From contig JADHYO010000011.1 in assembly GCA_016782405.1 (NCBI GenBank), forward strand, positions 1-26,682: a DNA stretch of 26,682 nucleotides, written 5' to 3'. This DNA comes from Candidatus Aenigmatarchaeota archaeon (GTDB lineage Archaea > Aenigmatarchaeota > Aenigmatarchaeia > QMZP01). Shown one piece after another: positions 3,464 through 24,879 of this stretch. The position numbers were made by a program, and so were the translations under genes. Position 1 is the stretch's first letter; every line of letters starts with the position of its first letter. A model generated the notes under the pieces. The model did not search any database and was not told the origin of the DNA. It was given only the letters and a program-made list of their open reading frames with translations.

Positions 3464-4396
3464 TCATTTCTTCTCTTGGTTTTTTTGCTTCTTGCTGCTG
3501 ACCTCTGCTTCAAGGGCTGGTAGTGTTTCTTTTATCCTGGCAAGGCGCGACTGGTATTTCTCTGTCTTAATTTTGTAGAGGGACTCTGAGATAATGCCAT
3601 GTTTAAAGCGGTCCTCCTGGGCTTTTTTCATGAGGTGGATCAGGCTTTTTTTCTCCCTTTTCAGGCGGTGGATTTTCTTGATGAGCTTGCGACGGCGGAG
3701 GGCTCTCCAGGATACCAATGCAGCTAGGGAGCAGGCAGCAATGACAATAATTGTTTCAACCCAGTATGTTTCAATGAAGCTTTTTCCAGCAGATGTTATA
3801 ATGCTTAAGGATGTGACAGATGCCTCACTTTCTTCTAGGGTTTGTTTGGCTTGCTCCAGGAGGGAGGAGGCCTCTTCGTAACGTTCTTTGTAAAAGGCTT
3901 CACGGGCCTGCTCCAGAAGGGATGCAGCCTCGGAAGTGTCCACCAACTGCTTCTGTTCTTGCTTAGAAAAAAGATTCATTAAACCGGGCTCTTTGAATTC
4001 TTCTGTGCTGTAGGAATCCAGCTTCTTGCTGAATGCTGTTATTGAATCAAAAAGAATGATTTCATCATCTGCTAGCTGGCAGACTTCTTCTGCAGCTGAA
4101 ATTGCCCCAGCGTATGTTTTTTCTTCAGCAGGCAATCCTGTCAAGGACTGATTTAAGGCAGCGGCAACTGGGCCACTTAACCCTTTCTTCAGGCTTTCAA
4201 CAGATTCAGCCCTCCTCTTGATGTCATTGACCCTGATTAGGAGGTCCTCTGCCATCCCAGTTGGGAGGTTGTTGCTTTTCAATTCTTGGATGCATTGAGA
4301 TGCGTTTTCAATAGCAGAGGCTGCATCCTCCATGGGCTGGGCTGATACCAAAGGGAGGAGTACCAGGAAGGCAGCAAGCAGGGCTAGGGTTTTCAT
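3464..4396 (-). CDS. Secreted, C-terminally membrane-anchored coiled-coil protein; third gene of the giant-surface-protein operon
   Basis: N-terminal signal peptide MKTLALLAAFLVLLPLVSA. Helical/coiled-coil ectodomain, a TM helix (TIIVIAACSLAALVSW) and a basic cytoplasmic tail carrying the AQEDRFKHG...Y...RLARIKE motif shared with the giant protein. Start overlaps the giant ORF stop by 4 nt (ATGA). Confidence 0.6.
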   Translation of the reverse strand: MKTLALLAAFLVLLPLVSAQPMEDAASAIENASQCIQELKSNNLPTGMAEDLLIRVNDIKRRAESVESLKKGLSGPVAAALNQSLTGLPAEEKTYAGAISAAEEVCQLADDEIILFDSITAFSKKLDSYSTEEFKEPGLMNLFSKQEQKQLVDTSEAASLLEQAREAFYKERYEEASSLLEQAKQTLEESEASVTSLSIITSAGKSFIETYWVETIIVIAACSLAALVSWRALRRRKLIKKIHRLKREKKSLIHLMKKAQEDRFKHGIISESLYKIKTEKYQSRLARIKETLPALEAEVSSKKQKNQEKK

Positions 4397-7300
4397 TCTT
4401 CACCTCCTGGCTTGATGTGTTTTGATTCAATAACCATGCGCTCGCCCTCTATTTCAGCGATGCGCCCATTTAGCTCTTTCTCTATTCCCTTGTACTCGTC
4501 TCTTGATGTTTTCCCTTTTTCGAGGTAGTCTTCCTGGGCCTGCTTCAGAGATGACATCACTTCATTGCTCTCCCTGTCCAGGTCCTTGAGAACTTGGTTT
4601 GGTTTGAGGAGGCGGACCCTCTTGTGGCGGAGTGTTGTCCTCTCTTTTTTTATTTTGGCAAGGCGTTTCTGGTAGTCTGAAAGTACAGAGTGGTATGCTG
4701 CATAACCGAGCTTTCCTTTTTCAAGGTAATCTCGCTGGGTTTCTTTTAACAGCTCCTTCAGGGTTTGCTCTTCTTTTTCCAGTCTCCTGATTCTCTCAGA
4801 GATTGTTGCTTTTGTATGGGCCCTGTAACCAACCACACCTGTTGCTGACGCAAGGAACATTGCAATTATTATTGCCCACCAGTAGGTGAGGAGGAATAAC
4901 ACAGGGTTGAAGATGCTGGATTCTGCTGCCAGGCCTAGCATTGCTTCGCGGGCACGCTGCAAGGCTGATGTGTAATCCTCGCGCTCAAATGCTGCTTCAG
5001 CCAGGCGGAGGAGCTCCTCGGTTTTTTCTAAGGAATCAGGAGATCCAGTTAGAGAGAGTGATGCAATATCATTTTTCAGGGATTCAATCAGGTCGCTGGC
5101 TTCTAAAGCATTCTTTTTCATTGATTCTATTTCTTTGCTGAGTTCCCAGACCTTTGAGAAATCCCTTTGTTCCAGGGCTTTTTTTGCGTCAGCCAGCAGT
5201 CCGGATAGTTGGTCTGTGGGGAAGCCTGCTTTTTTCATTTCTTCTAGGGCGGATTCTGCTTCCTTCAGCAACTGGGAGGCTTGGCTCTCGCTTACCTCAT
5301 GTATAACAAGAGTAACAGTCCTGCTTTCAACAAGGTCCTTGTTCACACCATTTCCGATGATTTTACCTGTGATGGTTATAGATAGCCAGTGGGTCCCTGC
5401 TTTCATATAGTCAGGGGATGTTACTGTCACCAAGAATTCTGCGGATTCGCCGAAAGGAATACTCTCTATCTCAACAGGGGAGAACTCAAGGTACTGGGAG
5501 AAGAAACCCTCGATTTTCATGGTCACATCTTCAAGAGCTGCATCTTCAAAGATGTTTTTGACTGTGACTGGGAATAATTGACTCCCTCCGCGCACCAGCT
5601 CCACAGTCTCCTTAGAGGAGAGGAGCTCTTTTCCTCTAAGTACAGCGCTAACAACCTGGGAGGTTGTTGCTCCGCCGGTTGAACCGCCGCCGCCGACTTC
5701 TGTTGTGGTTGTCTGGGTTACTGTTGTGGTGACTGTTGTGGGGATTCCTATGGAAACACTCTTGGAGTCAGAACTGCTGGAGCCTTCAGAAGAGGAGGCT
5801 GTGGCATTGATTGTGACTGTTTTGTTGTCTGCAGTGGAGCTGACATCTATTGTTATTGTATTGGTTGCAGATGAGCCAACTGTGAGGCTGTCAATAGAGC
5901 GGTTGAGTGTGCCACTCTGGTTGGAAAATTCTGCTGGAAGGTCCCAGGCTAACCAGACCCCTGAAGCATCAGAGGTTCCTAGGTTCTCTACCTTGGAAAC
6001 ATAGGTTACACCTGAATCTCCTTTGCTTACAGCAGAGGTGAATGTTGTTATTGTAACAGATAGGAATGGACCTGGGGTATTCTGGATGTTTATCTGGGCA
6101 GATGCTGTGTTTGAGGATGGGGAGGAGGAGCTGTCGTTTGCTGTGGATGTTATTGTGAAATTGTAGGAACCAACTGCAAATCCTGTTGTGTTTGCTGTGA
6201 CATTGAGTTTTCCTGAGGAGCCTGACGGGATTGTTAGGAGCGTGCTTGTGTTCTCTGTTCCATTGAATGTTATCCAAGCTGCGCTTGATGAAAGATTGAA
6301 TTCCAGTGGATGGTCACCTGTGTTGTTGACAGAGACATTGCCCAGTGAAATCACTCTGGGCTCGCTCCTGACAACTGATTTAACTGATGGTATTGTGCTG
6401 TAGAATGTCCATGTCTTGTCCAAGGATACTGAAACGGTTTCAGTTGAGGAGATGTTCTGGTTTCCGCTGTCATCCTCTACCAAAACTCGGAAGGTCCAGT
6501 TGTTTGTTGTGTTTGCAGTGAAGTTTCCTGTAAACAAGTCCCCGGAAAGGGAGTGCATGGTGAAGTTGAGGAATTTTGAGGCATTATTCTCCTTGAACTG
6601 GAGCAGGAGAATGGATAGGTTTGTGTTGTCAGTTGCATTCGCTGTCACGTTTACAGAGACGCCGGGGTCAAGGTCTCCTGTTGAGGAGGGGGAGTAGGTG
6701 ATATTACTTAGGATGGGATTAGTGACATCAGTCACTGTGAATGATGTGGAGGTGGAGTTTTCATTACTAGTGGTGTCATTAACATAGAAGACGCATGTGA
6801 CGCCGCCCTTGGAAAGGTTGGCTGCTGGGATTGTGAGATTCAAATCTGCGGAGGTGCCTGACAGGGAAAATGTTGTGTTTACAAAGGAGCCGCTGGAATT
6901 CTGTTCCACTATACCAAATGCTAGTTCTATGTTGTCGCTCCAGGAGGAGTGGCAGGTTGCAGAGGCATTGTCCGTGGCTGTGGAGGGGTCTGTAGCTGCA
7001 GCAGAGAACTGGGGGGAGGTGTTGTCAAAGGTGAAAAAGATGATGGAAGAGGCGCCGGTGTTCTGGGATGTGTCATTTGCGAAGAATGAGATGTTGTGGG
7101 AGCCCTGGGAAGGGGTGATGGTGGTGTTCCAGAGAATGAGGGAGGCGTTTCCCATGCTCACGTTGGCGGCGTTGTCCAGGGAGTACCAAGCTGCTGAGCT
7201 GTTTTCATCCATGCTTATGTTTAGCAGTAAGGTGGAGTGGAGTGAATTGTTCAGCGGGGAGAGGACAACAATTGAGGGTGGGGTGGTATCGCCTCCTGAT

Positions 7301-10263
7301 GTGTCCACAGTAAAGGTCCGGACAGATGAAGTTCCCATATTATCAATTGAGTCATTGGCAAAGAATTGAATGGTATGGACACCATCAGCTATGGAGTTTA
7401 GTGTGGCTATCCAGAGTGTTGATGATATAGATGTCATGGTGACATTGGCCCCACTGTCCATTGAGTATAAAGCTGAATCAGCGGATTCACCCAGGCTTAT
7501 TGTAGCATAGAAAGTGGATTGGGTGTATGTTTTGTTTTCCGGTGTTGCTACTGTTACTATAGGGGCAGTTGAGTCGCTGATATATGTTCCACTAATTCCG
7601 TTGTTGACAGCTGCCTCGGTGGAGTTGTCAAAGATGTATACAAACCAATCATATACAGCATCAGTGGTGGAGCTGGTGAAGTTGCAGGATGAGTTGATCT
7701 TTGATGTTGTGTTAGAGCATAAGGTTCCGGTTATACAGCCTGAGGAATTTGCTTCACTGGTGTTACATACATAGAGGAATATTGCTTGGCCTAGGTCACC
7801 ATCGGTCTCATTTGAGACAGTGGTTATTGAAATATTTAGACCGCCTTTTATTGTTTCAGCGGAAGCAGATGCAGAGGTGAGGACTGGCAAGCGGTTGATG
7901 TTTATTGTGCTGCTCTGAGTTGACTGCGCGTTGCCTGCATCATCTGTTGAATTGTAGCGGAGGTAATTCGGTCCGCGGTGGGAGGAATTGAATTCAATAA
8001 CTGGGACCCCCCCATCTGAAACTGTGTTTGGTGTACATGTGTCGGTGGTGTCTGTGCAGAATTTTGTTTCAGGGTCGCTATCGACGTTGTCTGACTCTGT
8101 TATGGTGACATTGTAGTCTGGTGAGTGGATGATGGTGTTGGAGCTGTCTGATGTTTGCGGGGCTGTCCAGTCTGTGACAAAGGATATGATGTCAATGTTC
8201 TGAGATGTGTTTTGGCTGTTTGTCATATTGTCTGCACAGGCAATGTAAATGTTTGTTGTGTTGGAGCCTTCTGTGTCAGTTGTGACGGTGCAGGATGAGT
8301 TAGTGCCTGTGGTCACGCATGCCAGTCCTGTACCTGGGTTGTAGGCATTGTCTGTTGTGTAATGCCTGCACAGCATACCATACTCCCCTATGACAGTGAC
8401 GTTTGTATAGCCATCATTCACATTGTCGTAAAAGGTTGCAGGAATTGTTTTAGCAACACTGGTTGTTGCATTGGATGCGTTTTCTGTGACTGTAACTGTG
8501 GATGAAAGGGTTGGTGGGGTTGAGTCTGTTGTGTAGGTTGTTGATTGGGCACTGGAATAATACACTAGGTCATAAACCCTGCAGTATACTGTGTGGGCGG
8601 CATCATCAGTTGTTGCTGTGAAAGTGCAGTTCATTGCAGAGTATGGGTTTGCATAGGAACTGTCTCCCTGGCTACATTGGGTATTGCTTGAGTCAGGTGT
8701 TGCATTCTCAGAGCAGTAAAACCTGAGGTTGTCATTGTTGGAATCATTCACCCCGCTTGGTTCAATTGCTATCAGGCCACCGCCTTTGATTGGATCGGGG
8801 TGGTCTGCAACTGACGAGAGTCTTGGCGTCACTACAATGGTTTGGTTTGATGTTCCAACCAGGAATATGTCTGAATCGTAGAAAAGGGCTTTTATAGTGA
8901 AATTGCCTTTCGATGTATTCATTGGGAGGGTGTGGTTGTATTCCCAGAGATTTTCTGAGTTGTTGACTCCCTGATGAACTGTTCCGTTGATTTGGAATGT
9001 GACATTTGTTATAACTGATGTGCCGCCGGTTTCGTTGAAACTTATGTTCACTGTATCATTAATCATGAATTCTTGCAGGAGGGTTGGGGTTACAAAGCTT
9101 GTGTTTGGCACATCACCAAAAGTATAGGTTGCAAATCCAAAGCTGTCTGTGCTTGTTCTGTTGTAAAATGTGTATTCCACCTTGTTGTAATTCATCCTGT
9201 TGGTCTTAGGGAAATTACTGCAACGTGTTGTTGGGTAGCGGTGATGGTCTGTTGAAAACTTTATTAGGACAGGTGCGCCAAACCCACCAGGTCCGGAATG
9301 ATTGACATATCCAATTACGTCGTCTGCTCCAGTTTCATTGGTGAAAATAATGTGGTAAAGTCCATTCCCATCAATGCAGCCAGATAGGTCCTCGCTGTCT
9401 AGCGAGCCCAGCGTGCTTTCATGGAATGTTTCACCGGAGTCGTTGCTGTATACAACCAGGAGGGTGTCTGTTTCTATTTCACCTGTTATCAGGATGTGAT
9501 CACCCCGCGTGTTGATTGAAACACTGTGGACACTGCTTCCATCTGATCCTGTATGCACGCTCCTGGATGTGGACGTTACAAAATTGTCTGAGGAGTTGTA
9601 CAGCATTAAGTTGTCAGGTATGCCCTGCTGATCATCAACAGCAATGTATATGTCACCATCATCAGTAACGTCAATGCCACACATGTTCGTGTTCCTGGCG
9701 TTACCAATCTCTGTTCTGGTCCATGTTCCAGATTCTGAGTCAAGTGTGGCGTTGATAAAAACTGTATCCTCGGCTGAGTCATATGCGCATATCACCCATT
9801 GGTTGTTGACCCCGTCATAAGCAACAGCAGGTTCGTTCAGGTTGCTTGTCAGCCCTGCTGCATCCGCCAGTGAGGAAAAGCCTGCGCAGCCTGTGTCAGT
9901 TACTGAATACTGGATGTCCCCCTGTCCTGTCTGGTCTGCTATTACTATTGCTCTTGTACCGTTTGTTGCTATGCTTGGCCATTGGTAGGTTCCTCCTCCG
10001 ATCTCTGTTTCACTGGACCAGGTTGCCCCGTTGTCTGTGGACTGGGCACATCTGACGTCATTGTCAACATCCTCCCATACAGCTATCAGCATTTCATTGT
10101 CCAGCCTTACCATATTTTTCTGGGCTGGGTCTCCACCTGCTGTTGCAGCGACTGCCTTGCTTGAAGGGTTGCTTATGTAAGAGCTGCTGAAACCTGCATA
10201 GGCTGTGGCAGTCAGTAGCGAAAGCCCTATTACAACTGCAAGTATGAAAAAAGATTGTTTCAT
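4393..10263 (-). CDS. Giant (1956 aa) secreted surface glycoprotein: N-terminal BNR/Asp-box beta-propeller, long Ser/Thr/Asn-rich Ig-like repeat region, poly-Thr linker, helical stalk, C-terminal TM helix and repeated cytoplasmic coiled-coil motif
   Basis: Signal peptide MKQSFFILAVVIGLSLLTATAYA. Asp-box motifs STDNGATWS and SNDSGETF. Very high density of N-x-S/T sequons. Linker PTTVTTTVTQTTTTEVGGGGSTGG. TM PVLFLLTYWWAIIIAMFLASATGVVGY. The tail carries two copies of Q(R/E)DYLEKGK...Y...(R)(L/I)A.I..E. Confidence 0.8.
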   Translation of the reverse strand: MKQSFFILAVVIGLSLLTATAYAGFSSSYISNPSSKAVAATAGGDPAQKNMVRLDNEMLIAVWEDVDNDVRCAQSTDNGATWSSETEIGGGTYQWPSIATNGTRAIVIADQTGQGDIQYSVTDTGCAGFSSLADAAGLTSNLNEPAVAYDGVNNQWVICAYDSAEDTVFINATLDSESGTWTRTEIGNARNTNMCGIDVTDDGDIYIAVDDQQGIPDNLMLYNSSDNFVTSTSRSVHTGSDGSSVHSVSINTRGDHILITGEIETDTLLVVYSNDSGETFHESTLGSLDSEDLSGCIDGNGLYHIIFTNETGADDVIGYVNHSGPGGFGAPVLIKFSTDHHRYPTTRCSNFPKTNRMNYNKVEYTFYNRTSTDSFGFATYTFGDVPNTSFVTPTLLQEFMINDTVNISFNETGGTSVITNVTFQINGTVHQGVNNSENLWEYNHTLPMNTSKGNFTIKALFYDSDIFLVGTSNQTIVVTPRLSSVADHPDPIKGGGLIAIEPSGVNDSNNDNLRFYCSENATPDSSNTQCSQGDSSYANPYSAMNCTFTATTDDAAHTVYCRVYDLVYYSSAQSTTYTTDSTPPTLSSTVTVTENASNATTSVAKTIPATFYDNVNDGYTNVTVIGEYGMLCRHYTTDNAYNPGTGLACVTTGTNSSCTVTTDTEGSNTTNIYIACADNMTNSQNTSQNIDIISFVTDWTAPQTSDSSNTIIHSPDYNVTITESDNVDSDPETKFCTDTTDTCTPNTVSDGGVPVIEFNSSHRGPNYLRYNSTDDAGNAQSTQSSTININRLPVLTSASASAETIKGGLNISITTVSNETDGDLGQAIFLYVCNTSEANSSGCITGTLCSNTTSKINSSCNFTSSTTDAVYDWFVYIFDNSTEAAVNNGISGTYISDSTAPIVTVATPENKTYTQSTFYATISLGESADSALYSMDSGANVTMTSISSTLWIATLNSIADGVHTIQFFANDSIDNMGTSSVRTFTVDTSGGDTTPPSIVVLSPLNNSLHSTLLLNISMDENSSAAWYSLDNAANVSMGNASLILWNTTITPSQGSHNISFFANDTSQNTGASSIIFFTFDNTSPQFSAAATDPSTATDNASATCHSSWSDNIELAFGIVEQNSSGSFVNTTFSLSGTSADLNLTIPAANLSKGGVTCVFYVNDTTSNENSTSTSFTVTDVTNPILSNITYSPSSTGDLDPGVSVNVTANATDNTNLSILLLQFKENNASKFLNFTMHSLSGDLFTGNFTANTTNNWTFRVLVEDDSGNQNISSTETVSVSLDKTWTFYSTIPSVKSVVRSEPRVISLGNVSVNNTGDHPLEFNLSSSAAWITFNGTENTSTLLTIPSGSSGKLNVTANTTGFAVGSYNFTITSTANDSSSSPSSNTASAQINIQNTPGPFLSVTITTFTSAVSKGDSGVTYVSKVENLGTSDASGVWLAWDLPAEFSNQSGTLNRSIDSLTVGSSATNTITIDVSSTADNKTVTINATASSSEGSSSSDSKSVSIGIPTTVTTTVTQTTTTEVGGGGSTGGATTSQVVSAVLRGKELLSSKETVELVRGGSQLFPVTVKNIFEDAALEDVTMKIEGFFSQYLEFSPVEIESIPFGESAEFLVTVTSPDYMKAGTHWLSITITGKIIGNGVNKDLVESRTVTLVIHEVSESQASQLLKEAESALEEMKKAGFPTDQLSGLLADAKKALEQRDFSKVWELSKEIESMKKNALEASDLIESLKNDIASLSLTGSPDSLEKTEELLRLAEAAFEREDYTSALQRAREAMLGLAAESSIFNPVLFLLTYWWAIIIAMFLASATGVVGYRAHTKATISERIRRLEKEEQTLKELLKETQRDYLEKGKLGYAAYHSVLSDYQKRLAKIKKERTTLRHKRVRLLKPNQVLKDLDRESNEVMSSLKQAQEDYLEKGKTSRDEYKGIEKELNGRIAEIEGERMVIESKHIKPGGEE

Positions 10264-10660: not shown

Positions 10661-11650
10661 TTAATCCGCTTCCCCAAAAACTTGCTGGTTGGGGTAGACA
10701 ACAATTCCGTTCTCAGTTATTTCCATTGCCACAATCTTTTCCTCGTGGCGGGCTCCGCGAAGCTTTAGCATCTCAATGGCGCGCTCGCGAACATTGCCGC
10801 GCTTGATGTTGTAGATGACAACCACCCCGTCTGCAAGAAACTCCTCGACCCCGGTTTGGCTGAAGATTGTGGGAACTTGTTTTGTTTCTGTTATTAGAAA
10901 AGCGTTCGCTTCTATTCTTTCAAAGAACCGAAACAGTTGTTCAATATAGGCACGGTAGCTTTCTTCTTTCCCTGTGAATGCAGAGGCTATTGCAGTCAGT
11001 GAGTCCAATGCAATGACATCCGGACGGAATCCTTTAGGAAGAATTAGGGGCTCCATATCTATCAAGAGCTCGCCCTTAGCCTTCATTAGGAGAGCATCAA
11101 CAGAGCGGGTGATTTCAAATGGGTTGAATCTCTTTATTACCAGGTTGCCGCTCTTTATCATGGAATCAGCATCCCACCCAAACTCCTCTATGTGGTCCTT
11201 CAGCCTTTCCTCAGACTCTTCGAAACTCATGTAGATACATTTCTTACCATCGCTTGCTTTTTTCATTAATGTTTGAAGGCAGAAAATAGTTTTTCCACTC
11301 CCCGCACCACCTGCCACAATGACCGCATAGCCCTTGGGGATACCTTTCTCCAGAAGCTGGTCAAAACCAGGAATTCCAGTCTTGATGTACTGCTTAACTC
11401 TCCCTGCTTTTTTGTGGGTTGCACTGTCAATCACGTGCTTGACTGGGGCACGCTGCTTCAGAATATCAGCGTGCTTTTTCTCAATTTCTCCGCCCTTGAG
11501 TTTTTTCTCAATTTCACTCTTCACTTTAGTAGAATCAAATGTTTCGCTTGCTGGTTTCGGATCGGACTTTGCACTCTCTGTTTTTTTATTTGGTTTTTTT
11601 TCTGGTGTACTGAACGTAACCCTCTTTTCTTTTTTCCTAAAGCCTAACAT
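10661..11650 (-). CDS. KaiC-like single-domain RecA-superfamily ATPase with basic, disordered N-terminal extension
   Basis: GIPGFDQLLEKGIPKGYAVIVAGGAGSGKT (Walker A), Walker B/catalytic Glu region LIDMEPL...VIALDS, and C-terminal EMLKLRGARHEEKI typical of archaeal KaiC/RadA-like ATPases. The first ~90 aa are Lys-rich and low-complexity. Confidence 0.8.
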   Translation of the reverse strand: MLGFRKKEKRVTFSTPEKKPNKKTESAKSDPKPASETFDSTKVKSEIEKKLKGGEIEKKHADILKQRAPVKHVIDSATHKKAGRVKQYIKTGIPGFDQLLEKGIPKGYAVIVAGGAGSGKTIFCLQTLMKKASDGKKCIYMSFEESEERLKDHIEEFGWDADSMIKSGNLVIKRFNPFEITRSVDALLMKAKGELLIDMEPLILPKGFRPDVIALDSLTAIASAFTGKEESYRAYIEQLFRFFERIEANAFLITETKQVPTIFSQTGVEEFLADGVVVIYNIKRGNVRERAIEMLKLRGARHEEKIVAMEITENGIVVYPNQQVFGEAD

Positions 11651-11776
11651 AGTTAATATTTATTTGAAATGATATAAAAGATTTGCCGAATTTTACCATT
11701 TGCTCGCACGGTTTGCTAGCGTTATTAGCTTCTCAAAATTCTTTCCTTTTAATATTTCCAGCAACATTAATTAATA

Positions 11777-12325
11777 ATGGACCAATTGGGTTCTCAGTTT
11801 AAAGACCTTCCGGATGGTTTTATTGCGCTGGTGCTTACAGACGCAGAAGAAATGCTGAAGACCAATATTACAATACTTAAGGAATTGACAAAGCAAGATC
11901 ACATTGGGCTTTACATAACAGTCAATCAGCCATACAAGAGACTGCTCCAGCTGCTGGATAACAACAAGATTCCCACAGACAGGATGTTTTTTATTGACTG
12001 TGTGACAAGGATGGCTGGAGGGACGTCAAAGAGGGAGAATAACTGCATATTCATTGCAAGCCCTTCTGGCCTTACGGAGCTGGGGATTGCAATTTCGCAG
12101 GCACTGGAAAGCTTCCCTGACAAGAAGAAATACATTTACATGGATGCGCTTTCCACTCTGATAATTTACAACACTGCTGGATCTATTGCAAAGTTTTCGC
12201 ACTTTATCATGAGCAAAATAAAAATCCTCGGGGTGTCTGGGGTATTCATAGCTGCAAGAAAGGAAGTTGATGAACAATTGATTGCGCAGATTGCGCAGTT
12301 TTGTGATAAGGTAATTAGGACATGA
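11777..12325 (+). CDS. DUF835-like protein: predicted inactivated (P-loop-less) KaiC/RecA-fold domain
   Basis: No Walker A. Segments GLYITVNQPYKRL...MFFIDCVT and YIYMDALSTLIIYNTAGSIAKFSHFI...ILGVSGVFIAARKEVDEQ resemble, from recollection, archaeal DUF835 domains (…GLCITRTHP…WLS… / …LDGLEYLI..NGF..VLKFL…). Divergently transcribed from the KaiC-like gene. Confidence 0.45.
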   Translation: MDQLGSQFKDLPDGFIALVLTDAEEMLKTNITILKELTKQDHIGLYITVNQPYKRLLQLLDNNKIPTDRMFFIDCVTRMAGGTSKRENNCIFIASPSGLTELGIAISQALESFPDKKKYIYMDALSTLIIYNTAGSIAKFSHFIMSKIKILGVSGVFIAARKEVDEQLIAQIAQFCDKVIRT

Positions 12326-12792: not shown

Positions 12793-12850
12793 GCAGGATG
12801 TTATTTTAGTGATTGGGTGCTGGTGTCCAGATGAATTGGTTCTGTTTTGG

Positions 12851-12877
12851 GTTATATACCGATAGATTTATATACTA
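12851..12877 (+). promoter_or_regulatory. Tandem TATA-like boxes (GTTATATACC / TTTATATACT) upstream of wHTH-MNT gene 1
   Basis: AT boxes 25-50 bp upstream of the start at 12902/12908. Confidence 0.35.
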
Positions 12878-12880
12878 ATG

Positions 12881-12896
12881 GTGTATAATTATACAC
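12881..12896. promoter_or_regulatory. Perfect 16-bp palindrome GTGTATAATTATACAC abutting the wHTH-MNT start codon (putative autoregulatory operator)
   Basis: Reverse complement is identical to the sequence. Lies 5 bp upstream of GTG 12902 and overlaps the TATA/TSS region. Confidence 0.5.
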
Positions 12897-12901
12897 TGTA
12901 G

Positions 12902-13501
12902 GTGTATATGTTGACTGAAAAAGAGACCCGGGTATTGAGATATTTGGCTGTACATTCCAAGGATTATCCTTCCATCAATAAAATAGCAAAGAAATGCAAA
13001 ATAACCCCAAATGGGGCATACAAAATACTGAAAAAACTTGAGAATGAGGGGGTACTACTGTTCAAAAGAATTTCCAATATAAAATCTTATTACATTGACT
13101 TCAGGAACAAAAAATCCCTGAATATAATGGAGCTTGCATTAAATCCTAGAATAATAAAAAAAAGAGTGCAATACAGAATTGAAGATATAAAACCAATGGA
13201 GAGAATAACAGATGGTTGTGTCTTATTTGGCTCATATTTGAGTGAAAAAAAGGAACCTAATGATCTGGATGTCTTGTTTGTTTTTGAAAAACGGAAATAC
13301 AAGACTTACCAACAAACCCTGAGCAAAATAAAAGAAATATGCCCGATAAAAATACATGATGTGATTCAAACAAAACAGGATTTAATAAACAACCTGGAAA
13401 AGGGCGATAAGGTGATTGAAAATATTCTGGAGAATGGAACTGTTCTGTGGGGCCACAGTTTAATAACAGAGGTGTTAAAATGCCAGTTAAAGAAAAACTA
13501 A
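12902..13501 (+). CDS. wHTH-fused minimal nucleotidyltransferase (MNT; Pol-beta NTase superfamily), antitoxin-like partner of the downstream HEPN-like gene
   Basis: N-terminal winged helix (SINKIAKKCKITPNGAYKILKKLENEGVL). NTase signature GSYLSEKKEPNDLDVLFVF (G[S/G]-x9-D-x-D). Start is GTG 12902 or ATG 12908. Confidence 0.7.
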   Translation: MYMLTEKETRVLRYLAVHSKDYPSINKIAKKCKITPNGAYKILKKLENEGVLLFKRISNIKSYYIDFRNKKSLNIMELALNPRIIKKRVQYRIEDIKPMERITDGCVLFGSYLSEKKEPNDLDVLFVFEKRKYKTYQQTLSKIKEICPIKIHDVIQTKQDLINNLEKGDKVIENILENGTVLWGHSLITEVLKCQLKKN

Positions 13502-13544
13502 AAAATGTTTTAAAGAGGGGGAAAGGGGTGAAAGGCACAAAGGG

Positions 13545-13988
13545 TTGAAGAATGTGGAAGTATATGAAGAAAAAATTAGGGGTCATATAGCAAAAGCAAA
13601 CAAGAACTTTCACGCAATAGAAGACTTTAGGAGAGTGGGGCATTCAGACTGGTCGCCTTCTGCAGCCTTTTATTCAATCTATCATCTGCTGCTGGCATTG
13701 CTTGCCAAATATGGAACAGAATCAAGGAACCAGAGCTGCACATTTGCTTTTATTGAAGACCTCATTGATAAAGGGGGGATATCCCTAACAAAAGATGACC
13801 TAAAGCAGATATTTGACAAAGGTGTTAAGGAGAATCTGGAACAAAGCGACAAAATATTGGATGTGAGAGAATTCACCCAGTATTCCACCAAAACAAACAT
13901 GGAAGACAAAGAATTTGAGCACATGAAAAACAAAACAAAGATCTTGTTTGATAGAATAAAGAAGGAAATTGAAAGGGGACTTGAATAG
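13545..13988 (+). CDS. HEPN-like domain protein (partner of MNT), canonical Rx4-6H His apparently absent
   Basis: All-helical. SAAFYSIYHLLLALLAKYGTESRNQSCTFAFIEDL aligns by eye to the HEPN helix-2/3 region (…AEKALKALL…G…THDLLEL). The Arg of the motif is present (ESRNQ) but His is replaced by Phe. A strong purine-rich RBS (GAGGGGGAAAGGGGTGAAAGG) precedes a TTG/GTG start. Confidence 0.5.
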   Translation: MKNVEVYEEKIRGHIAKANKNFHAIEDFRRVGHSDWSPSAAFYSIYHLLLALLAKYGTESRNQSCTFAFIEDLIDKGGISLTKDDLKQIFDKGVKENLEQSDKILDVREFTQYSTKTNMEDKEFEHMKNKTKILFDRIKKEIERGLE

Positions 13989-14078
13989 GAAGGCCTCCAG
14001 GGCTGCGTGATCGGGGATGTTATTTTGACGGATAGTGTGCTAATTGTAAGGCAAATGTTGGTTTCAGTAAAACAAAGC

Positions 14079-14086
14079 TTATATAC
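14079..14086 (+). promoter_or_regulatory. TATA-like box TTATATAC upstream of wHTH-MNT gene 2
   Basis: AT box ~55 bp upstream of the ATG at 14138. Confidence 0.3.
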
Positions 14087-14099
14087 ATGCAAATCTTAT

Positions 14100-14134
14100 A
14101 TTAACTGTGAGTTAATACATATTAACTGTGAGTT
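14100..14134 (+). promoter_or_regulatory. Two direct repeats ATTAACTGTGAGTT spaced 21 bp centre-to-centre, immediately upstream of wHTH-MNT gene 2 (putative operator)
   Basis: 14100-14113 and 14121-14134 are identical 14-mers. Two helical turns apart. They end 4 bp before the ATG. Confidence 0.5.
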
Positions 14135-14137
14135 TAT

Positions 14138-14731
14138 ATGAAAGGGCTAACTGATAAGGAAATGGAAATTTTGTCTCTTTTGTTTAGGGATTTCTCTAAC
14201 AATTACAATGCAAACAACATTGCAAAAAAAATAGGGATAACCCCAGCCGGGGCTTTTAAGGCATTGAAAAGGCTGGAGGAAAAAAAGGTGGTTATTGGGA
14301 AAAGGATGGGCAAAGCCACATTTTACAAGGCGAATTTAGATGAATATCACTCATTCAGGACGATTGAACTTTTGTTAATAAACGAGGCAAGGAGCAAAGC
14401 CTCCAGGTGGATATTTGAGTTTAGGGATATTCTTGATAAAGTGGAAATAGCAATCATATTTGGCTCTGTTATCAGGGATGCAAAAAAGGCAAATGATGTT
14501 GATATTTTATTGGTACTGAAAAAAGAGAAAAACAGCACAGTAAATAAAATAATAAGGGAAAGAAAGCAGCTATCAAACAAACCAATACATGTAGTAAAGC
14601 AGACACCTTCTGATTTAGTCAGGAATCTAAAAAATAAGGACAAAGTCATCCTCAACGCAATAAAAAGCGGGCAAATACTGTGCGGGTATGATAAGCTGTT
14701 GGATGTTGTTAAAAATGTCACAAGCTTCTAA
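14138..14731 (+). CDS. wHTH-fused minimal nucleotidyltransferase (MNT), paralog of 12902-13501
   Basis: wHTH (NNIAKKIGITPAGAFKALKRLEEKKVV). NTase signature IIFGSVIRDAKKANDVDILLV. Same domain order as gene 12902. Confidence 0.7.
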   Translation: MKGLTDKEMEILSLLFRDFSNNYNANNIAKKIGITPAGAFKALKRLEEKKVVIGKRMGKATFYKANLDEYHSFRTIELLLINEARSKASRWIFEFRDILDKVEIAIIFGSVIRDAKKANDVDILLVLKKEKNSTVNKIIRERKQLSNKPIHVVKQTPSDLVRNLKNKDKVILNAIKSGQILCGYDKLLDVVKNVTSF

Positions 14732-15227
14732 CAAAGTCAAATGGTGCTTGAATAAGGCTGAGAAAGAATTAGAACAATCAGACCTTCATAGGGGCTTGGT
14801 TAAAACAGAAGAGAATATGGGATTATCAGAAAGGCATATTGTCAAAGCTGAGCACAACCTGAAGGCTGCAACAGACTTTGATAAAATCGGGTATTCAGAT
14901 TGGTCTGCTTCTGCTTTCTTCTATACAATATACCATTGCTTTTTGTCAATACTTTCGAAGTTTGGGTATGAAAGCAGGAATCAAGAATGCACAATTGCCG
15001 CAATTGAGATGTTAAAAGAGGAAGGAAAAATAGATATTGACGACAAATTTATTAACAGCCTAAAAATAACTAAAATTGAAGAGATGCACGAAAGCAGCAT
15101 TATAAAGGCTAGGGAAGACTTCCAGTATGGGGTTGAACTGGAATTCAAAGAAAGGGAGCAATTCAACAGAATGAGTCAAATGTGCAAGGAAATCATTCAG
15201 GTGACAAATGATATTATACATGAATGA
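14715..15227 (+). CDS. HEPN-like domain protein, paralog of 13545-13988 (His of Rx4-6H again absent: ESRNQECTI)
   Basis: SASAFFYTIYHCFLSILSKFGYESRNQECTIAAIEML parallels the first copy. The ORF track starts at 14688, but the Met at 14715 gives a 17-nt overlap with the MNT gene and matches the paralog N-terminus. Confidence 0.5.
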   Translation: MSQASNKVKWCLNKAEKELEQSDLHRGLVKTEENMGLSERHIVKAEHNLKAATDFDKIGYSDWSASAFFYTIYHCFLSILSKFGYESRNQECTIAAIEMLKEEGKIDIDDKFINSLKITKIEEMHESSIIKAREDFQYGVELEFKEREQFNRMSQMCKEIIQVTNDIIHE

Positions 15228-15252
15228 GTCCTACCACACTGCCTGAGGTTCC

Positions 15253-15959: not shown

Positions 15960-17006
15960 TCATCTTTTTGCATGTAATTCAGAAAGCACCATTACATCAT
16001 CTAAGAAACCGGCCTCTACTTTTTCAAGTTCTTCGTGAGAATAACTCCCATCTCGCAGTCTTGCCCATATTGGCATATTACCCACAGTTGCCCACCAAAA
16101 TTCATCTTCAGTTTTATCATCGAACCCCCAATCTCTATCGTGTATTTCTTGTAATCGTTTTTGAATAGTCTGATAACCATCTGAAAGGATATTGCCTACT
16201 ATTCTTCTTTCTCCTTGTGAAAGCCAAGTATAATAACTAATATTTCCACAACTGTCTAAAAAGGCATAAGGTTCGGGGGTGTCATTTCTTCCTACAAATT
16301 GTATTCGAGAATCACCTAATTTTTTCATTCTTTGTTCTGTTAAAAGAAATTTCGCTAAAAGGCAATCTGTATAACCTCTTGCTGAAGTCCCGCCGTCCCG
16401 AAGCCTATCAATTCTTTGAATTCTTGCGATTAATTCACTCTGACTTCCCCCCGCATCAATAGCAGATTTAGATGCCAAATCGTCATTAAACTCATAGATT
16501 CTCCAATAATCAAATTCATTTTGACTGACATAATCATAAACTTGTGGAATATCTTGATGGTTTATTGCTGTAAAAACAGTATGATACCCCAATCTAACAC
16601 ATCTTCCCAAAATTGTTGATGCTAAATGAGGAAGTCTGTCCATTACTGCAAGAAATTTTTCTCCTCTTAATTCCTTTTGGGTATCTCTATCAGTACTATC
16701 AATAGGAAGTGCAATATCATCAACTTCCAATTCAGGTAAGATATCATCTAATAATAACCCATTGGTATGAAGACTGATGTATTTCCCAGCTTGTTTAAGA
16801 ATATGTGTAACTTCGGCCAAATCTTTGACTAAGGTGGGTTCTCCTCCTCCCAATGTCACTTTAGCAACATCACTATCTGCTAAAACATGGGCAAGATTTG
16901 CATTTCCACCTTCAGCTTCATTGTATGTAAATTTTGGTTTAAAACAATATACACAATCAAGATTACATCTATCTGCGATATACCAATGTACGTGTTCCCC
17001 AACCAT
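15960..17006 (-). CDS. Radical SAM domain protein of unknown specificity (no SPASM/auxiliary Cys cluster), C-terminal Trp/Asp-rich domain
   Basis: N-terminal CNLDCVYC (CxxxCxxC) at residues 14-21. GGGEPTL glycine-rich SAM motif. A single later Cys. C-terminal region WGFDDKTEDEFWWATVGNMPIW with no family I can place. Lower GC than flanking core genes. Confidence 0.7.
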   Translation of the reverse strand: MVGEHVHWYIADRCNLDCVYCFKPKFTYNEAEGGNANLAHVLADSDVAKVTLGGGEPTLVKDLAEVTHILKQAGKYISLHTNGLLLDDILPELEVDDIALPIDSTDRDTQKELRGEKFLAVMDRLPHLASTILGRCVRLGYHTVFTAINHQDIPQVYDYVSQNEFDYWRIYEFNDDLASKSAIDAGGSQSELIARIQRIDRLRDGGTSARGYTDCLLAKFLLTEQRMKKLGDSRIQFVGRNDTPEPYAFLDSCGNISYYTWLSQGERRIVGNILSDGYQTIQKRLQEIHDRDWGFDDKTEDEFWWATVGNMPIWARLRDGSYSHEELEKVEAGFLDDVMVLSELHAKR

Positions 17007-24546: not shown

Positions 24547-24879
24547 TTAAACGCTATGCTGCACAGTTATTGGTGCTTCCTGCCTATCTGCAGCTGTTGT
24601 TATCAGCTGCTTCTCCAACCTGAACAACTCCTCCACCAACGGGTTGCCTCGGTTAATCTGGTAGAGTTTTGCCTTCCCGAATTTCCTTGAAATCTTTACA
24701 ATGCCAAACCCTTCCAGGCGGTCCCAGTGCTTGTAGAATGTGGCCTTGCTCATGCCTGTTTCTTCTATGATTTCCTTTTTGCTGAAGTCAAACAGCTTGT
24801 TATCAAGGAAAAAGTCTATTATTCTCATCTCTGGGGAACTGCCCAGCATCTCCAACAGGAGGGATTTCTCTTTGTTCAT
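24547..24879 (-). CDS. Winged-helix transcriptional regulator (TrmB/ArsR-like)
   Basis: FSKKEIIEETGMSKATFYKHWDRLEGFGIVKISRKFGKAKLYQIN is a classic archaeal wHTH. Confidence 0.6.
   Translation of the reverse strand: MNKEKSLLLEMLGSSPEMRIIDFFLDNKLFDFSKKEIIEETGMSKATFYKHWDRLEGFGIVKISRKFGKAKLYQINRGNPLVEELFRLEKQLITTAADRQEAPITVQHSV

What the first reader, a model, noticed from the sequence alone, without database searches (positions are those of the whole stretch)
12800..15230. Tandem duplicated wHTH-MNT + HEPN-like pairs in which both HEPN copies appear to lack the catalytic His of the Rx4-6H motif
Seen in sequence:
- Two consecutive two-gene modules at 12902-13988 and 14138-15227.
- Each encodes an N-terminal winged-helix fused to a minimal nucleotidyltransferase (GS-x9-DxD intact in both).
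- Each is followed by an all-helical HEPN-like protein.

Established knowledge: HEPN/MNT pairs are type II/VII toxin-antitoxin modules. MNT neutralises the HEPN RNase by AMPylation, and HEPN catalysis needs the Arg and His of Rx4-6H.

By eye the motif region reads ESRNQSCTF in copy 1 and ESRNQECTI in copy 2. Arg is present, but His is replaced by a hydrophobic residue in both paralogs. Either this is a non-canonical HEPN active site or a non-nucleolytic HEPN variant (for example a sensor or scaffold) regulated by an HTH-NTase. The HTH fusion, together with palindromic and direct-repeat operators at both promoters, indicates that the MNT doubles as the transcriptional autoregulator.
Basis: partly seen in the sequence, partly recalled or inferred. 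Interest (0 to 1): 0.6.

Follow-up and report, generated by a model that had tools for sequence, protein, structure and literature searches.

The report
Two archaeal HTH-nucleotidyltransferase/HEPN gene pairs
Two side-by-side copies of a two-gene module (a DNA-binding nucleotidyltransferase plus a HEPN protein) that is common in small DPANN archaea; the "missing" catalytic histidine is real, but it is a published hallmark of this class of HEPN proteins, so the finding is mostly ordinary.

Summary

ESRNQxCT is the helix 2-3 loop, which aligns to AF0298 "SKTH". The canonical position is REFTQY / REDFQY, that is R-x4-Y, and it is invariant across the homologs examined. So the canonical His is indeed absent. 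This is already described for the AF0298/HEPN-T clade (Anantharaman 2013) and for "Class II HEPN/MNT" pairs (Yao 2020). The wHTH-NTase also matches PADLOC candidate PDC-M05A.

Specific to this DPANN clade:
- the family's second His is Gln (SRNQ, 163/163);
- a conserved N-terminal Cys/His extension;
- a family-wide operator design, palindromes repeated at 21 bp upstream of the NTase gene (73% of 81 loci vs 4% of controls). This supports autoregulation.

Copy 1's HEPN has a reproducible -1 frameshift at A_AAA_AAT.

Most likely this is a Class II HEPN/MNT toxin-antitoxin-like module in which the NTase nucleotidylates the invariant Tyr. Interest is modest.

The parts
12863..12910 (+). Promoter/operator of module 1. 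It has a TATA-like TTTATATA (12867-12874), a perfect 16-bp palindrome GTGTATAATTATACAC (12881-12896), and GGTGTATA repeated 21 bp apart (12880-12887 and 12901-12908), with the second copy overlapping the start codon.
   Evidence: inverted repeat p=0.015 against shuffles. The same palindrome is present in ortholog locus L001.
12902..13501 (+). MNT1: a winged-helix + minimal nucleotidyltransferase (199 aa from GTG 12902; more likely 197 aa from ATG 12908). GS-x9-DxD lies at 13229-13270 and the invariant I-H at 13352-13357.
   Evidence: (Polbeta PF18765 31.1 bits against cutoff 26.9, plus HTH families), (PADLOC PDC-M05A E 1.2e-10); a 197-aa gene was called in L087.
13480..13988 (+). HEPN1 (type-1 subfamily). 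ATG 13480 opens 'MPVKEKLK' in one frame; the HEPN body (CFKEGERGERHKGL...) runs from 13506 in the -1 frame. The mechanical ORF is 13545-13988. SRNQSCT lies at 13722-13742 and REFTQY at 13866-13883.
13500..13506 (+). Frameshift site A_AAA_AAT, in X_XXY_YYZ phase relative to ATG 13480. It overlaps the MNT1 stop codon (13499-13501).
   Evidence: orthologs read CTAAAGAAATG; identical in three other assemblies; the same heptamer drives -1 PRF in S. solfataricus fucA1; no downstream structure.
14078..14140 (+). Promoter/operator of module 2. It has TATA-like boxes (14078-14085, 14095-14102) and two 20-nt direct repeats ATATTAACTGTGAGTT(A/T)ATA at 14098-14117 and 14119-14138, spaced 21 bp. The first holds the inverted repeat TATTAACT/AGTTAATA; the second, a 95% copy, is presumed to hold a near-identical one. 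The second repeat abuts the ATG.
   Evidence: The same operator sequence occurs upstream of the closest orthologs (L007, L008, L018).
14138..14731 (+). MNT2: a winged-helix + minimal nucleotidyltransferase (197 aa). The wHTH is roughly residues 1-66. GS-x9-DxD lies at 14462-14503 and the invariant I-H at 14585-14590.
14715..15227 (+). HEPN2 (type-2 subfamily, 170 aa from ATG 14715, overlapping the end of MNT2 by 17 nt). N-terminal extension: Cys11 at 14745-14747 and HRGL at 14787-14798. YH lies at 14931-14936, SRNQECT at 14973-14993 and REDFQY at 15111-15128.
   Evidence: (912 homologs).

Best explanation
The locus holds two anciently diverged paralogous copies of one two-gene module that is widespread in DPANN archaea. 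The module is a winged-helix-fused minimal nucleotidyltransferase (MntA-like) followed by an overlapping gene for a UPF0332/AF0298-type HEPN protein. This places it in 'Class II HEPN/MNT' and makes it a divergent relative of the PADLOC candidate PDC-M05.

Shown:
- the domain folds;
- intact GS-x9-DxD in both NTases;
- strict gene pairing across at least 80 species;
- an R-x4-Y motif in place of Rx4-6H;
- operator-like palindromes repeated at 21 bp over the promoter and start codon.

Inferred mechanism:
1. The wHTH binds the paired operators, probably as a dimer of dimers on one DNA face, and represses its own operon.
2. The NTase domain transfers AMP/NMP to the invariant Tyr (Y113 in HEPN1, Y138 in HEPN2). 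This Tyr sits where the canonical His would be. The modification would switch off the HEPN protein, as MntA does to HepT Tyr104.
3. Unmodified HEPN acts through a non-canonical polar site: R133, E134, Q137, Y138, the S-R-N-Q loop, Y70/Y73/H74 and H41/K44/N48. It most likely binds or cleaves RNA.

The two copies have different operators, so they are probably regulated independently. HEPN1 has lost its in-frame N-terminal extension through a 1-nt deletion.
For: - Fold and family.
- NTase catalytic motif invariant in 43 homologs (F-G-S, D120, D122).
- Pairing: a full-length wHTH-MNT lies immediately upstream on the same strand, usually overlapping by about 8-11 nt, in essentially all of 86 loci. 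Other neighbours are not conserved, and several genomes hold more than one copy. This is the toxin-antitoxin-like signature.
- Tyr: 161/161 in close homologs and 89/91 in 50%-identity representatives. It is also present in AF0298 ('REESDY') and in 9XBD, for which a Y->F variant, 9XBC, was deposited.
- Literature: the MNT was predicted to nucleotidylate a conserved C-terminal Tyr (PMC3710099); this was demonstrated for Class I HepT Y104; Class II keeps a conserved Tyr and the GSXnDXD motif (PMC7641770).
- Operators: the best direct repeat is spaced exactly 21 bp in 73% of 81 distinct MNT upstream regions against 4.3% of 439 control upstream regions. Perfect inverted repeats of at least 8 nt occur in 51% against 5.9%. 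Half-sites differ between protein subfamilies.
- Low GC (0.36 against 0.44-0.48 in the flanks) fits acquired DNA.
Against: - No Class II (PF05168) HEPN/MNT pair had been characterised biochemically as of Yao 2020. Toxicity, RNase activity and Tyr nucleotidylation are therefore all extrapolated from Class I.
- There is no His at the canonical position, and the clade also lacks the 'second' His of the AF0298 family (Q90, 163/163), so RNase chemistry is uncertain.
- NCBIfam MntA_antitoxin scores 21 against a cutoff of 60.
- The third metal ligand of MntA (D71) seems to be replaced by an invariant His; an adjacent Asp is present only in the MNT1 subtype.
- The HEPN proteins give no PADLOC PDC-M05B match.
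- No virus-borne copies were found.
- The broad presence in DPANN genomes, some in housekeeping neighbourhoods (PMC6393860), could mean a cellular regulatory role rather than a selfish toxin-antitoxin module.
Confidence: 0.6

Rival explanations
1. First reader's reading. The HEPN proteins are catalytically dead and act as sensors or scaffolds (for example a nucleotide- or RNA-binding regulatory subunit), controlled by or controlling the HTH-NTase.
For: Neither the canonical His nor the family's alternative His (SKxH becomes SRNQ) is present. Anantharaman 2013 notes that HEPN domains can be non-catalytic binding modules. [quoted passage not shown]
Against: About 20 invariant polar or aromatic positions, including the canonical Arg and four conserved His (H25, H41, H47, H74), are kept over 163 close homologs. 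This argues for a precise active or ligand site. Anantharaman 2013 explicitly proposes alternative active sites for AF0298-like HEPNs.
Confidence: 0.2
2. The pair is not a toxin-antitoxin. It is a two-subunit nucleotidyltransferase in which HEPN is the substrate-binding subunit (as in kanamycin NTase, GlnE and HI0073/HI0074). It would modify a third molecule, and the wHTH would tie enzyme level or target genes to that activity. This would be a conserved DPANN cellular function.
Against: Neighbourhoods are otherwise not conserved: the next most common neighbour occurs in 6 of 86 loci. Several paralogs occur per genome. Composition is atypical. Copy 1 has a frameshifted HEPN. These are features of mobile toxin-antitoxin or defence modules, not of a core enzyme.
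Confidence: 0.15
3. The modules are anti-virus defence systems (a PDC-M05-like abortive-infection module). Infection would release the HEPN effector from NTase control.
For: MNT1 and MNT2 match PADLOC PDC-M05A over the full length (E 1.2e-10 and 7e-17). Distant HEPN relatives match PDC-M05B (P0371, E 1.8e-6). PDC-M05 is NTase + HEPN, is enriched in archaea, and DPANN are enriched in PDCs (PMC12988326).
Against: PDC-M05 itself is unvalidated. The HEPNs here do not match M05B. No recognised defence genes flank the modules in the window. This explanation is compatible with the best explanation; it concerns biological role, not mechanism.
Confidence: 0.25

Closest known systems
Class II HEPN/MNT modules (PF05168 HEPN + PF01909/PF18765 NTase; Makarova 2009, Yao et al. 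2020) and the HEPN-T clade typified by AF0298 (PDB 2HSB, UPF0332)
   Same: - NTase gene upstream of, and overlapping, a PF05168 HEPN gene.
- R-x4-Y instead of Rx4-6H, with an invariant Tyr.
- GS-xn-DxD kept in the NTase.
   Different: - The family's second conserved His (S-K-x-H) is Gln here (S-R-N-Q-x-C-T).
- A roughly 30-residue N-terminal extension carries invariant Cys11 and near-invariant His25.
- The NTase carries an N-terminal winged helix (about 197 aa rather than under 150 aa).
- The spacer is GS-x9-DxD, not x10.
Type VII HepT/MntA (Class I; SO_3166/SO_3165, Aphanizomenon HEPN/MNT, Legionella HEPN-MNT)
   Same: - The same two folds and the same gene order.
- A conserved Tyr next to the conserved Arg, a plausible NMP acceptor.
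   Different: - No RX4HXY; the Tyr is at R+5, the place of the His, rather than R+7.
- NCBIfam MntA model not met (21 against 60 bits).
- MntA has no DNA-binding domain.
- The third metal ligand differs.
PADLOC phage-defence candidate PDC-M05 (M05A nucleotidyltransferase + M05B HEPN)
   Same: MNT1 and MNT2 align to M05A over nearly its whole length, including the N-terminal HTH part. The system has a two-gene NTase + HEPN architecture and is enriched in archaea.
   Different: HEPN1 and HEPN2 give no M05B hit even at E<=10; only distant SKxH-type relatives do. The antiviral function of PDC-M05 is itself untested.
DPANN-conserved MNT-HEPN fusion (cls.004259, NEQ050; Makarova, Wolf & Koonin 2019)
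   Same: MNT + HEPN, DPANN-specific, and often in housekeeping neighbourhoods.
   Different: That family is a single fused protein.

Membership tests
Class II HEPN/MNT (PF05168 + minimal NTase) | The HEPN protein matches Pfam PF05168 above the gathering score | tested here: met
   29.4 bits (HEPN1) and 24.2 bits (HEPN2) against a cutoff of 22
Class II HEPN/MNT (PF05168 + minimal NTase) | No RX4H(XY) motif, but a conserved Tyr in the C-terminal helix region | tested here: met
   REFTQY / REDFQY. Arg and Tyr are invariant, with no His at that position in the homologs aligned there (161 close, 91 representatives).
Class II HEPN/MNT (PF05168 + minimal NTase) | An adjacent upstream NTase with GS-xn-DxD | tested here: met
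   GS-x9-DxD in both and invariant in 43 homologs. Adjacency holds in about all of 86 loci.
AF0298/UPF0332 HEPN-T clade | Closest fold and sequence relationship to 2HSB | tested here: met
AF0298/UPF0332 HEPN-T clade | A second strongly conserved His N-terminal to the motif. Here it is taken to be the S-K-x-H loop; the paper does not say which His it means. | tested here: not met
   The position is Gln in 163/163 close homologs and His in 33 of 125 more distant representatives. The helix-2 His (H74) is kept.
Type VII HepT/MntA (Class I) | RX4HXY motif in the HEPN toxin | tested here: not met
   R-x4-Y with no His
Type VII HepT/MntA (Class I) | The NTase meets the NCBIfam MntA_antitoxin equivalog model | tested here: not met
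   21.2 and 21.4 bits against a cutoff of 60
Type VII HepT/MntA (Class I) | The NTase (oligo)AMPylates a Tyr of the HEPN and thereby neutralises a toxic RNase | not testable with these tools
   Requires co-expression with mass spectrometry, plus toxicity and RNase assays
PADLOC PDC-M05 | Gene A matches the PDC-M05A model | tested here: met
   E 7e-17 (MNT2, model positions 14-186 of 201) and 1.2e-10 (MNT1)
PADLOC PDC-M05 | Gene B matches the PDC-M05B model | tested here: not met
   No hit at E<=10 for HEPN2 or P0002. Distant relatives do hit: P0371 at 1.8e-6, and P0335 and P0346 at about 1e-3.
Autoregulating wHTH antitoxin/repressor | Winged-helix fold | tested here: met
Autoregulating wHTH antitoxin/repressor | Repeated or palindromic operator over its own promoter | tested here: met
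   21-bp spacing occurs in 73% of regions against 4.3% of controls, and inverted repeats of at least 8 nt in 51% against 5.9%. Actual binding was not tested.
DPANN cls.004259 (NEQ050 MNT-HEPN fusion) | Sequence relationship to NEQ050 | not tested

The most novel reading that the evidence does not exclude
In this DPANN clade the HEPN active site has been rebuilt without either of the histidines used by other HEPN proteins.
- The invariant Tyr occupies the canonical His position and serves as both the functional residue and the NMP acceptor.
- A clade-specific N-terminal extension (Cys11, His25 in an H[RK]GL strand that pairs with the strand just before S-R-N-Q) supplies a replacement catalytic or metal-binding element.
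- In copy 1 this extension is attached only by a -1 ribosomal frameshift at A_AAA_AAT. That would give translational control over an active versus inactive HEPN form.
Probability: 0.1. Interest if true: 0.6.

Novelty: new variant of a known kind. Interest (0 to 1): 0.33.

Why it matters
Class II (PF05168) HEPN/MNT pairs are among the most abundant two-gene modules in archaea, yet none had been characterised biochemically as of 2020.

This DPANN branch is a clean test case:
- small proteins;
- confident structural models;
- an invariant R-x4-Y, with Tyr in the His position;
- a built-in DNA-binding domain with a readable operator code.

It could be used to ask two questions. Do His-less HEPN proteins still cut RNA? 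Is Tyr nucleotidylation the general control mechanism?

The practical correction is that "no His in Rx4-6H" should not be flagged as an anomaly for PF05168/UPF0332-type HEPN proteins.

Tried and rejected
- Full-text searches for 'UPF0332 + HEPN' found nothing. Searches for PDB codes 9XBD/9XBC returned only irrelevant papers.
- The 2026 paper on fused MNT-HEPN (PMC13000451) concerns Class I-type proteins and does not mention HTH fusions or Class II.
- Histidine-relocation idea (H90 of SKxH replaced by H25 of the N-terminal extension). The covariation looked suggestive: C11/H25/Q90/C92 against no extension/H90/A92. However, several lineages have Q90 and no H25 (P0295, P0299, P0278, P0269), and the tools do not return model coordinates, so distances could not be measured. 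It is kept only as a low-probability idea.
- Programmed frameshifting. The heptamer and phase fit, but there is no stimulatory RNA structure downstream (z -0.58) and orthologs are in frame. A plain deletion is at least as likely.
- A virus-borne origin was not supported: no relatives in IMG/VR.
- Rfam and tRNA scans of the window were empty.
- The sigma-70 promoter scan was not used because the organism is an archaeon.
- Long antisense ORFs inside the four genes (13257-13643, 13682-14092, 14347-14721) have no supporting evidence and are treated as by-products of purine-rich coding strands.
Full report
**What is there**

The window is a 26,682-bp contig of a Candidatus Aenigmarchaeota MAG. P0001 and P0044 are identical or near-identical to the window proteins, and their longest contig is 26,682 bp.

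Four co-oriented genes lie at the stated coordinates:
- MNT1 at 12902-13501, with a likely start at ATG 12908;
- HEPN1, mechanical ORF 13545-13988;
- MNT2 at 14138-14731;
- HEPN2 at 14715-15227, overlapping MNT2 by 17 nt.

Both NTases match Pfam Polbeta PF18765 above threshold, and their first ~65 residues match many HTH families. GS-x9-DxD is intact at 13229-13270 and 14462-14503.

**Where the motif really is**

It aligns to 'DSKTHRGT' of AF0298.

A profile that includes more distant relatives aligns full-length to AF0298 (E 3.7e-14). It maps 'AREDFQYG' of HEPN2 onto AF0298 'LREESDYG'. According to Anantharaman et al. 2013, AF0298-type HEPNs keep the basic residue of Rx4-6H but lack the His. 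By transitivity, the canonical-position motif here is R-E-x-x-Q-Y: 13866-13883 in HEPN1 and 15111-15128 in HEPN2. A Tyr occupies the His position. I could not obtain a residue-level structural superposition with a Class I HepT, so this equivalence rests on the profile alignment plus the paper.

In 163 close homologs, Arg, Glu, Gln and Tyr of this motif are invariant apart from two sequences with Met at the Arg position. Across all 312 homologs examined, no sequence has His at the Tyr position.

**Is the missing His new?**

No.
- Anantharaman 2013 describes it for the HEPN-T clade typified by AF0298 and proposes an alternative active site using a second conserved His.
- Yao et al. 2020 define 'Class II HEPN/MNT' as PF05168 HEPNs next to NTases. 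They state that these lack RX4HXY, keep a conserved Tyr and the NTase motif, and had not been studied biochemically.
- PADLOC lists an NTase + HEPN candidate defence system, PDC-M05. Its gene A model matches MNT1 and MNT2 over nearly its full length (E 1.2e-10 and 7e-17).
- A 2026 survey calls PDC-M05 archaeal-enriched and unvalidated.

**What is particular to this clade**

1. The family's loop motif is S-K-x-H-x-A-T in distant relatives and AF0298, but S-R-N-Q-x-C-T here. Position 90 is Gln in 163/163 close homologs. Among 50%-identity representatives it is Gln in 90 and His in 33. If that His is the 'second His' of the 2013 paper, this clade lacks both histidines.
2. The proteins carry a ~30-residue N-terminal extension: a helix at 3-21, then an H[RK]GL strand that pairs with the Y-E-S strand just before R-N-Q. 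Cys11 is invariant and His25 nearly so. Both co-occur with Cys92 and Gln90. The co-occurrence is not strict, because some lineages have Gln90 without His25.
3. About 20 polar or aromatic positions are invariant (C11, G27, K44, N48, D62, W63, Y70, Y73, H74, S87-Q90, C92, R133, E134, Q137, Y138), and His25, His41 and His47 are near-invariant. This is the pattern of a working site, not a decayed one.

The HEPNs here do not match PADLOC PDC-M05B, whereas distant SKxH relatives do.

**Distribution and linkage**

HEPN2-type proteins have 912 homologs in the 90%-clustered collection; HEPN1-type have 43. A profile finds 418 clusters at 50% identity.

In one-genome-per-species contigs, 368 loci encode a relative. 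The best 80 are almost all labelled as DPANN lineages (Woese-, Nano-, Pace-, Aenigmarchaeota) or as unclassified or uncultured archaeal MAGs.

In essentially every locus with enough upstream sequence, a full-length wHTH-NTase lies immediately upstream on the same strand, usually overlapping by about 8-11 nt. Nothing else in the neighbourhood is conserved: the next most common neighbour appears in 6 of 86 loci.

Some genomes have two loci, and L036 has two pairs in tandem like the window.

The window's two pairs are only 34% (MNT) and 41% (HEPN) identical. They are old paralogs, not a fresh duplication.

The 2-kb segment has 36% GC against 44-48% in most of the window. No relatives occur in IMG/VR. 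The surrounding genes are chromosomal: KaiC, DUF7504, radical SAM, SPFH, DEAD-box helicase.

**Operators**

Module 1 has a TATA-like box (12867-12874), a perfect 16-bp palindrome (12881-12896), and GGTGTATA repeated 21 bp apart, the second copy overlapping the start codon.

Module 2 has two 20-nt repeats 21 bp apart (14098-14117, 14119-14138). The first contains an 8+8 inverted repeat; the second, a 95% copy, is presumed to contain a near-identical one and abuts the ATG.

This is a family-wide design. I compared 81 distinct upstream regions of MNT genes with 439 control upstream regions from the same loci:

| Feature | MNT upstream regions | Control upstream regions |
|---|---|---|
| Best direct repeat spaced exactly 21 bp | 73% | 4.3% |
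| Exact direct repeat of at least 9 nt at 21-bp spacing | 49% | 0.2% |
| Perfect inverted repeat of at least 8 nt | 51% | 5.9% |

Half-sites (TTAACT, GTAACT, GAACT, TTTACA, GTGTAT) change with the protein subfamily. Close orthologs share the window's operator sequences: L001 for module 1, and L007, L008 and L018 for module 2.

It also suggests the two modules are insulated from each other. Binding itself is untested.

**HEPN1 frameshift**

Orthologs start MPVKEKLKKCF... In the window, ATG 13480 encodes MPVKEKLK, and the conserved CFKEGERGERHKGL... then continues in the -1 frame. The cause is a 1-nt deletion: CTAAA-AAATG against CTAAAGAAATG in the orthologs.

The same sequence is present in two ENA assemblies and one Logan assembly, so it is not an error of one assembly.

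The site reads A_AAA_AAT in X_XXY_YYZ phase. That is the same heptamer that drives -1 frameshifting in Sulfolobus solfataricus fucA1. There is, however, no downstream RNA structure.

Two readings remain open:
- HEPN1 is made without its N-terminal extension (or not at all), which would be typical decay of a toxin gene;
- HEPN1 is made in full by frameshifting.

I consider a plain mutation at least as likely as frameshifting.

**Most likely mechanism**

By analogy with HepT/MntA, the NTase probably nucleotidylates the invariant Tyr, which lies next to the conserved Arg, and so controls the HEPN protein. The wHTH represses the operon through the paired operators.

Supporting hints:
- the Tyr is conserved across the family, in AF0298 and in the solved relative 9XBD;
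- a Y->F variant of 9XBD at exactly this Tyr has been deposited as 9XBC;
- the catalytic Asp pair of the NTase is invariant.

Open points:
- whether the HEPN cleaves RNA at all;
- what replaces the His;
- whether the invariant His151 of the NTase substitutes for the third metal-binding Asp of MntA (D71).

Overall, the finding is a real but largely already-described kind of module, in a divergent DPANN variant.

Noticed in passing
window 13480-13545 (site 13500-13506): HEPN1 is split by a 1-nt deletion relative to its orthologs. The shift site is A_AAA_AAT in the correct phase for -1 ribosomal frameshifting, the same heptamer as in S. solfataricus fucA1, and it overlaps the MNT1 stop codon. The sequence is identical in three other assemblies (L087, L088, L089). 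No downstream RNA structure was found.
   Followed up: partly
window 13001-15000 and 16001-17000: GC content drops to 0.36-0.37 over the two modules and over the radical-SAM gene (15960-17006, minus strand), against 0.44-0.48 in most of the contig. This may indicate acquired DNA.
   Followed up: no
window 14585-14590 (MNT2) and 13352-13357 (MNT1): On the strand where pol-beta NTases usually carry the third metal-binding carboxylate (MntA D71), this family has an invariant Ile-His. An Asp follows only in the MNT1 subtype (IHDV), not in MNT2 (IHVV).
   Followed up: partly
window 14745-14747, 14787-14789, 14988-14990 (HEPN2 Cys11, His25, Cys92): Cys11 and His25 of the N-terminal extension co-occur across the family with Cys92 and Gln90 of the S-R-N-Q-x-C loop. 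Relatives without the extension have His90 and Ala92. This may reflect a structural or metal site, or a relocated His. The distances could not be measured.
   Followed up: partly
window 10661-12325; loci L001-L003: The type-1 module lies next to KaiC-like and DUF7504 genes both in the window (KaiC 10661-11650 on the minus strand; DUF7504 11777-12325) and in the ortholog loci, where the DUF7504/KaiC-like genes follow the HEPN gene. This may simply be synteny among close relatives.
   Followed up: no
window 4393-10263 (minus strand): A giant 1956-aa ORF whose only Pfam hit is a marginal NPCBM_assoc match. It is probably a DPANN surface protein.
   Followed up: no
window 14138-14161: The NCBI record calls MNT2 as 189 aa (P0164), starting at an internal Met. 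Homologs and the operator layout indicate the 197-aa start at ATG 14138. HEPN2 and MNT2 are both annotated only as 'hypothetical protein' there.
   Followed up: partly
PDB 9XBD / 9XBC (found with profile A6): Two recently deposited 'HEPN domain-containing protein' structures of the same UPF0332-like family differ by Y->F at the Tyr equivalent to Y138. This suggests someone is testing that Tyr as a modification site. No paper was found in the library.
   Followed up: partly
window 24547-24879 (minus strand): A stand-alone 110-aa winged-helix protein has relatives within a few kb of the MNT-HEPN pair in two other loci (cluster 15). Its significance is unknown.
   Followed up: no
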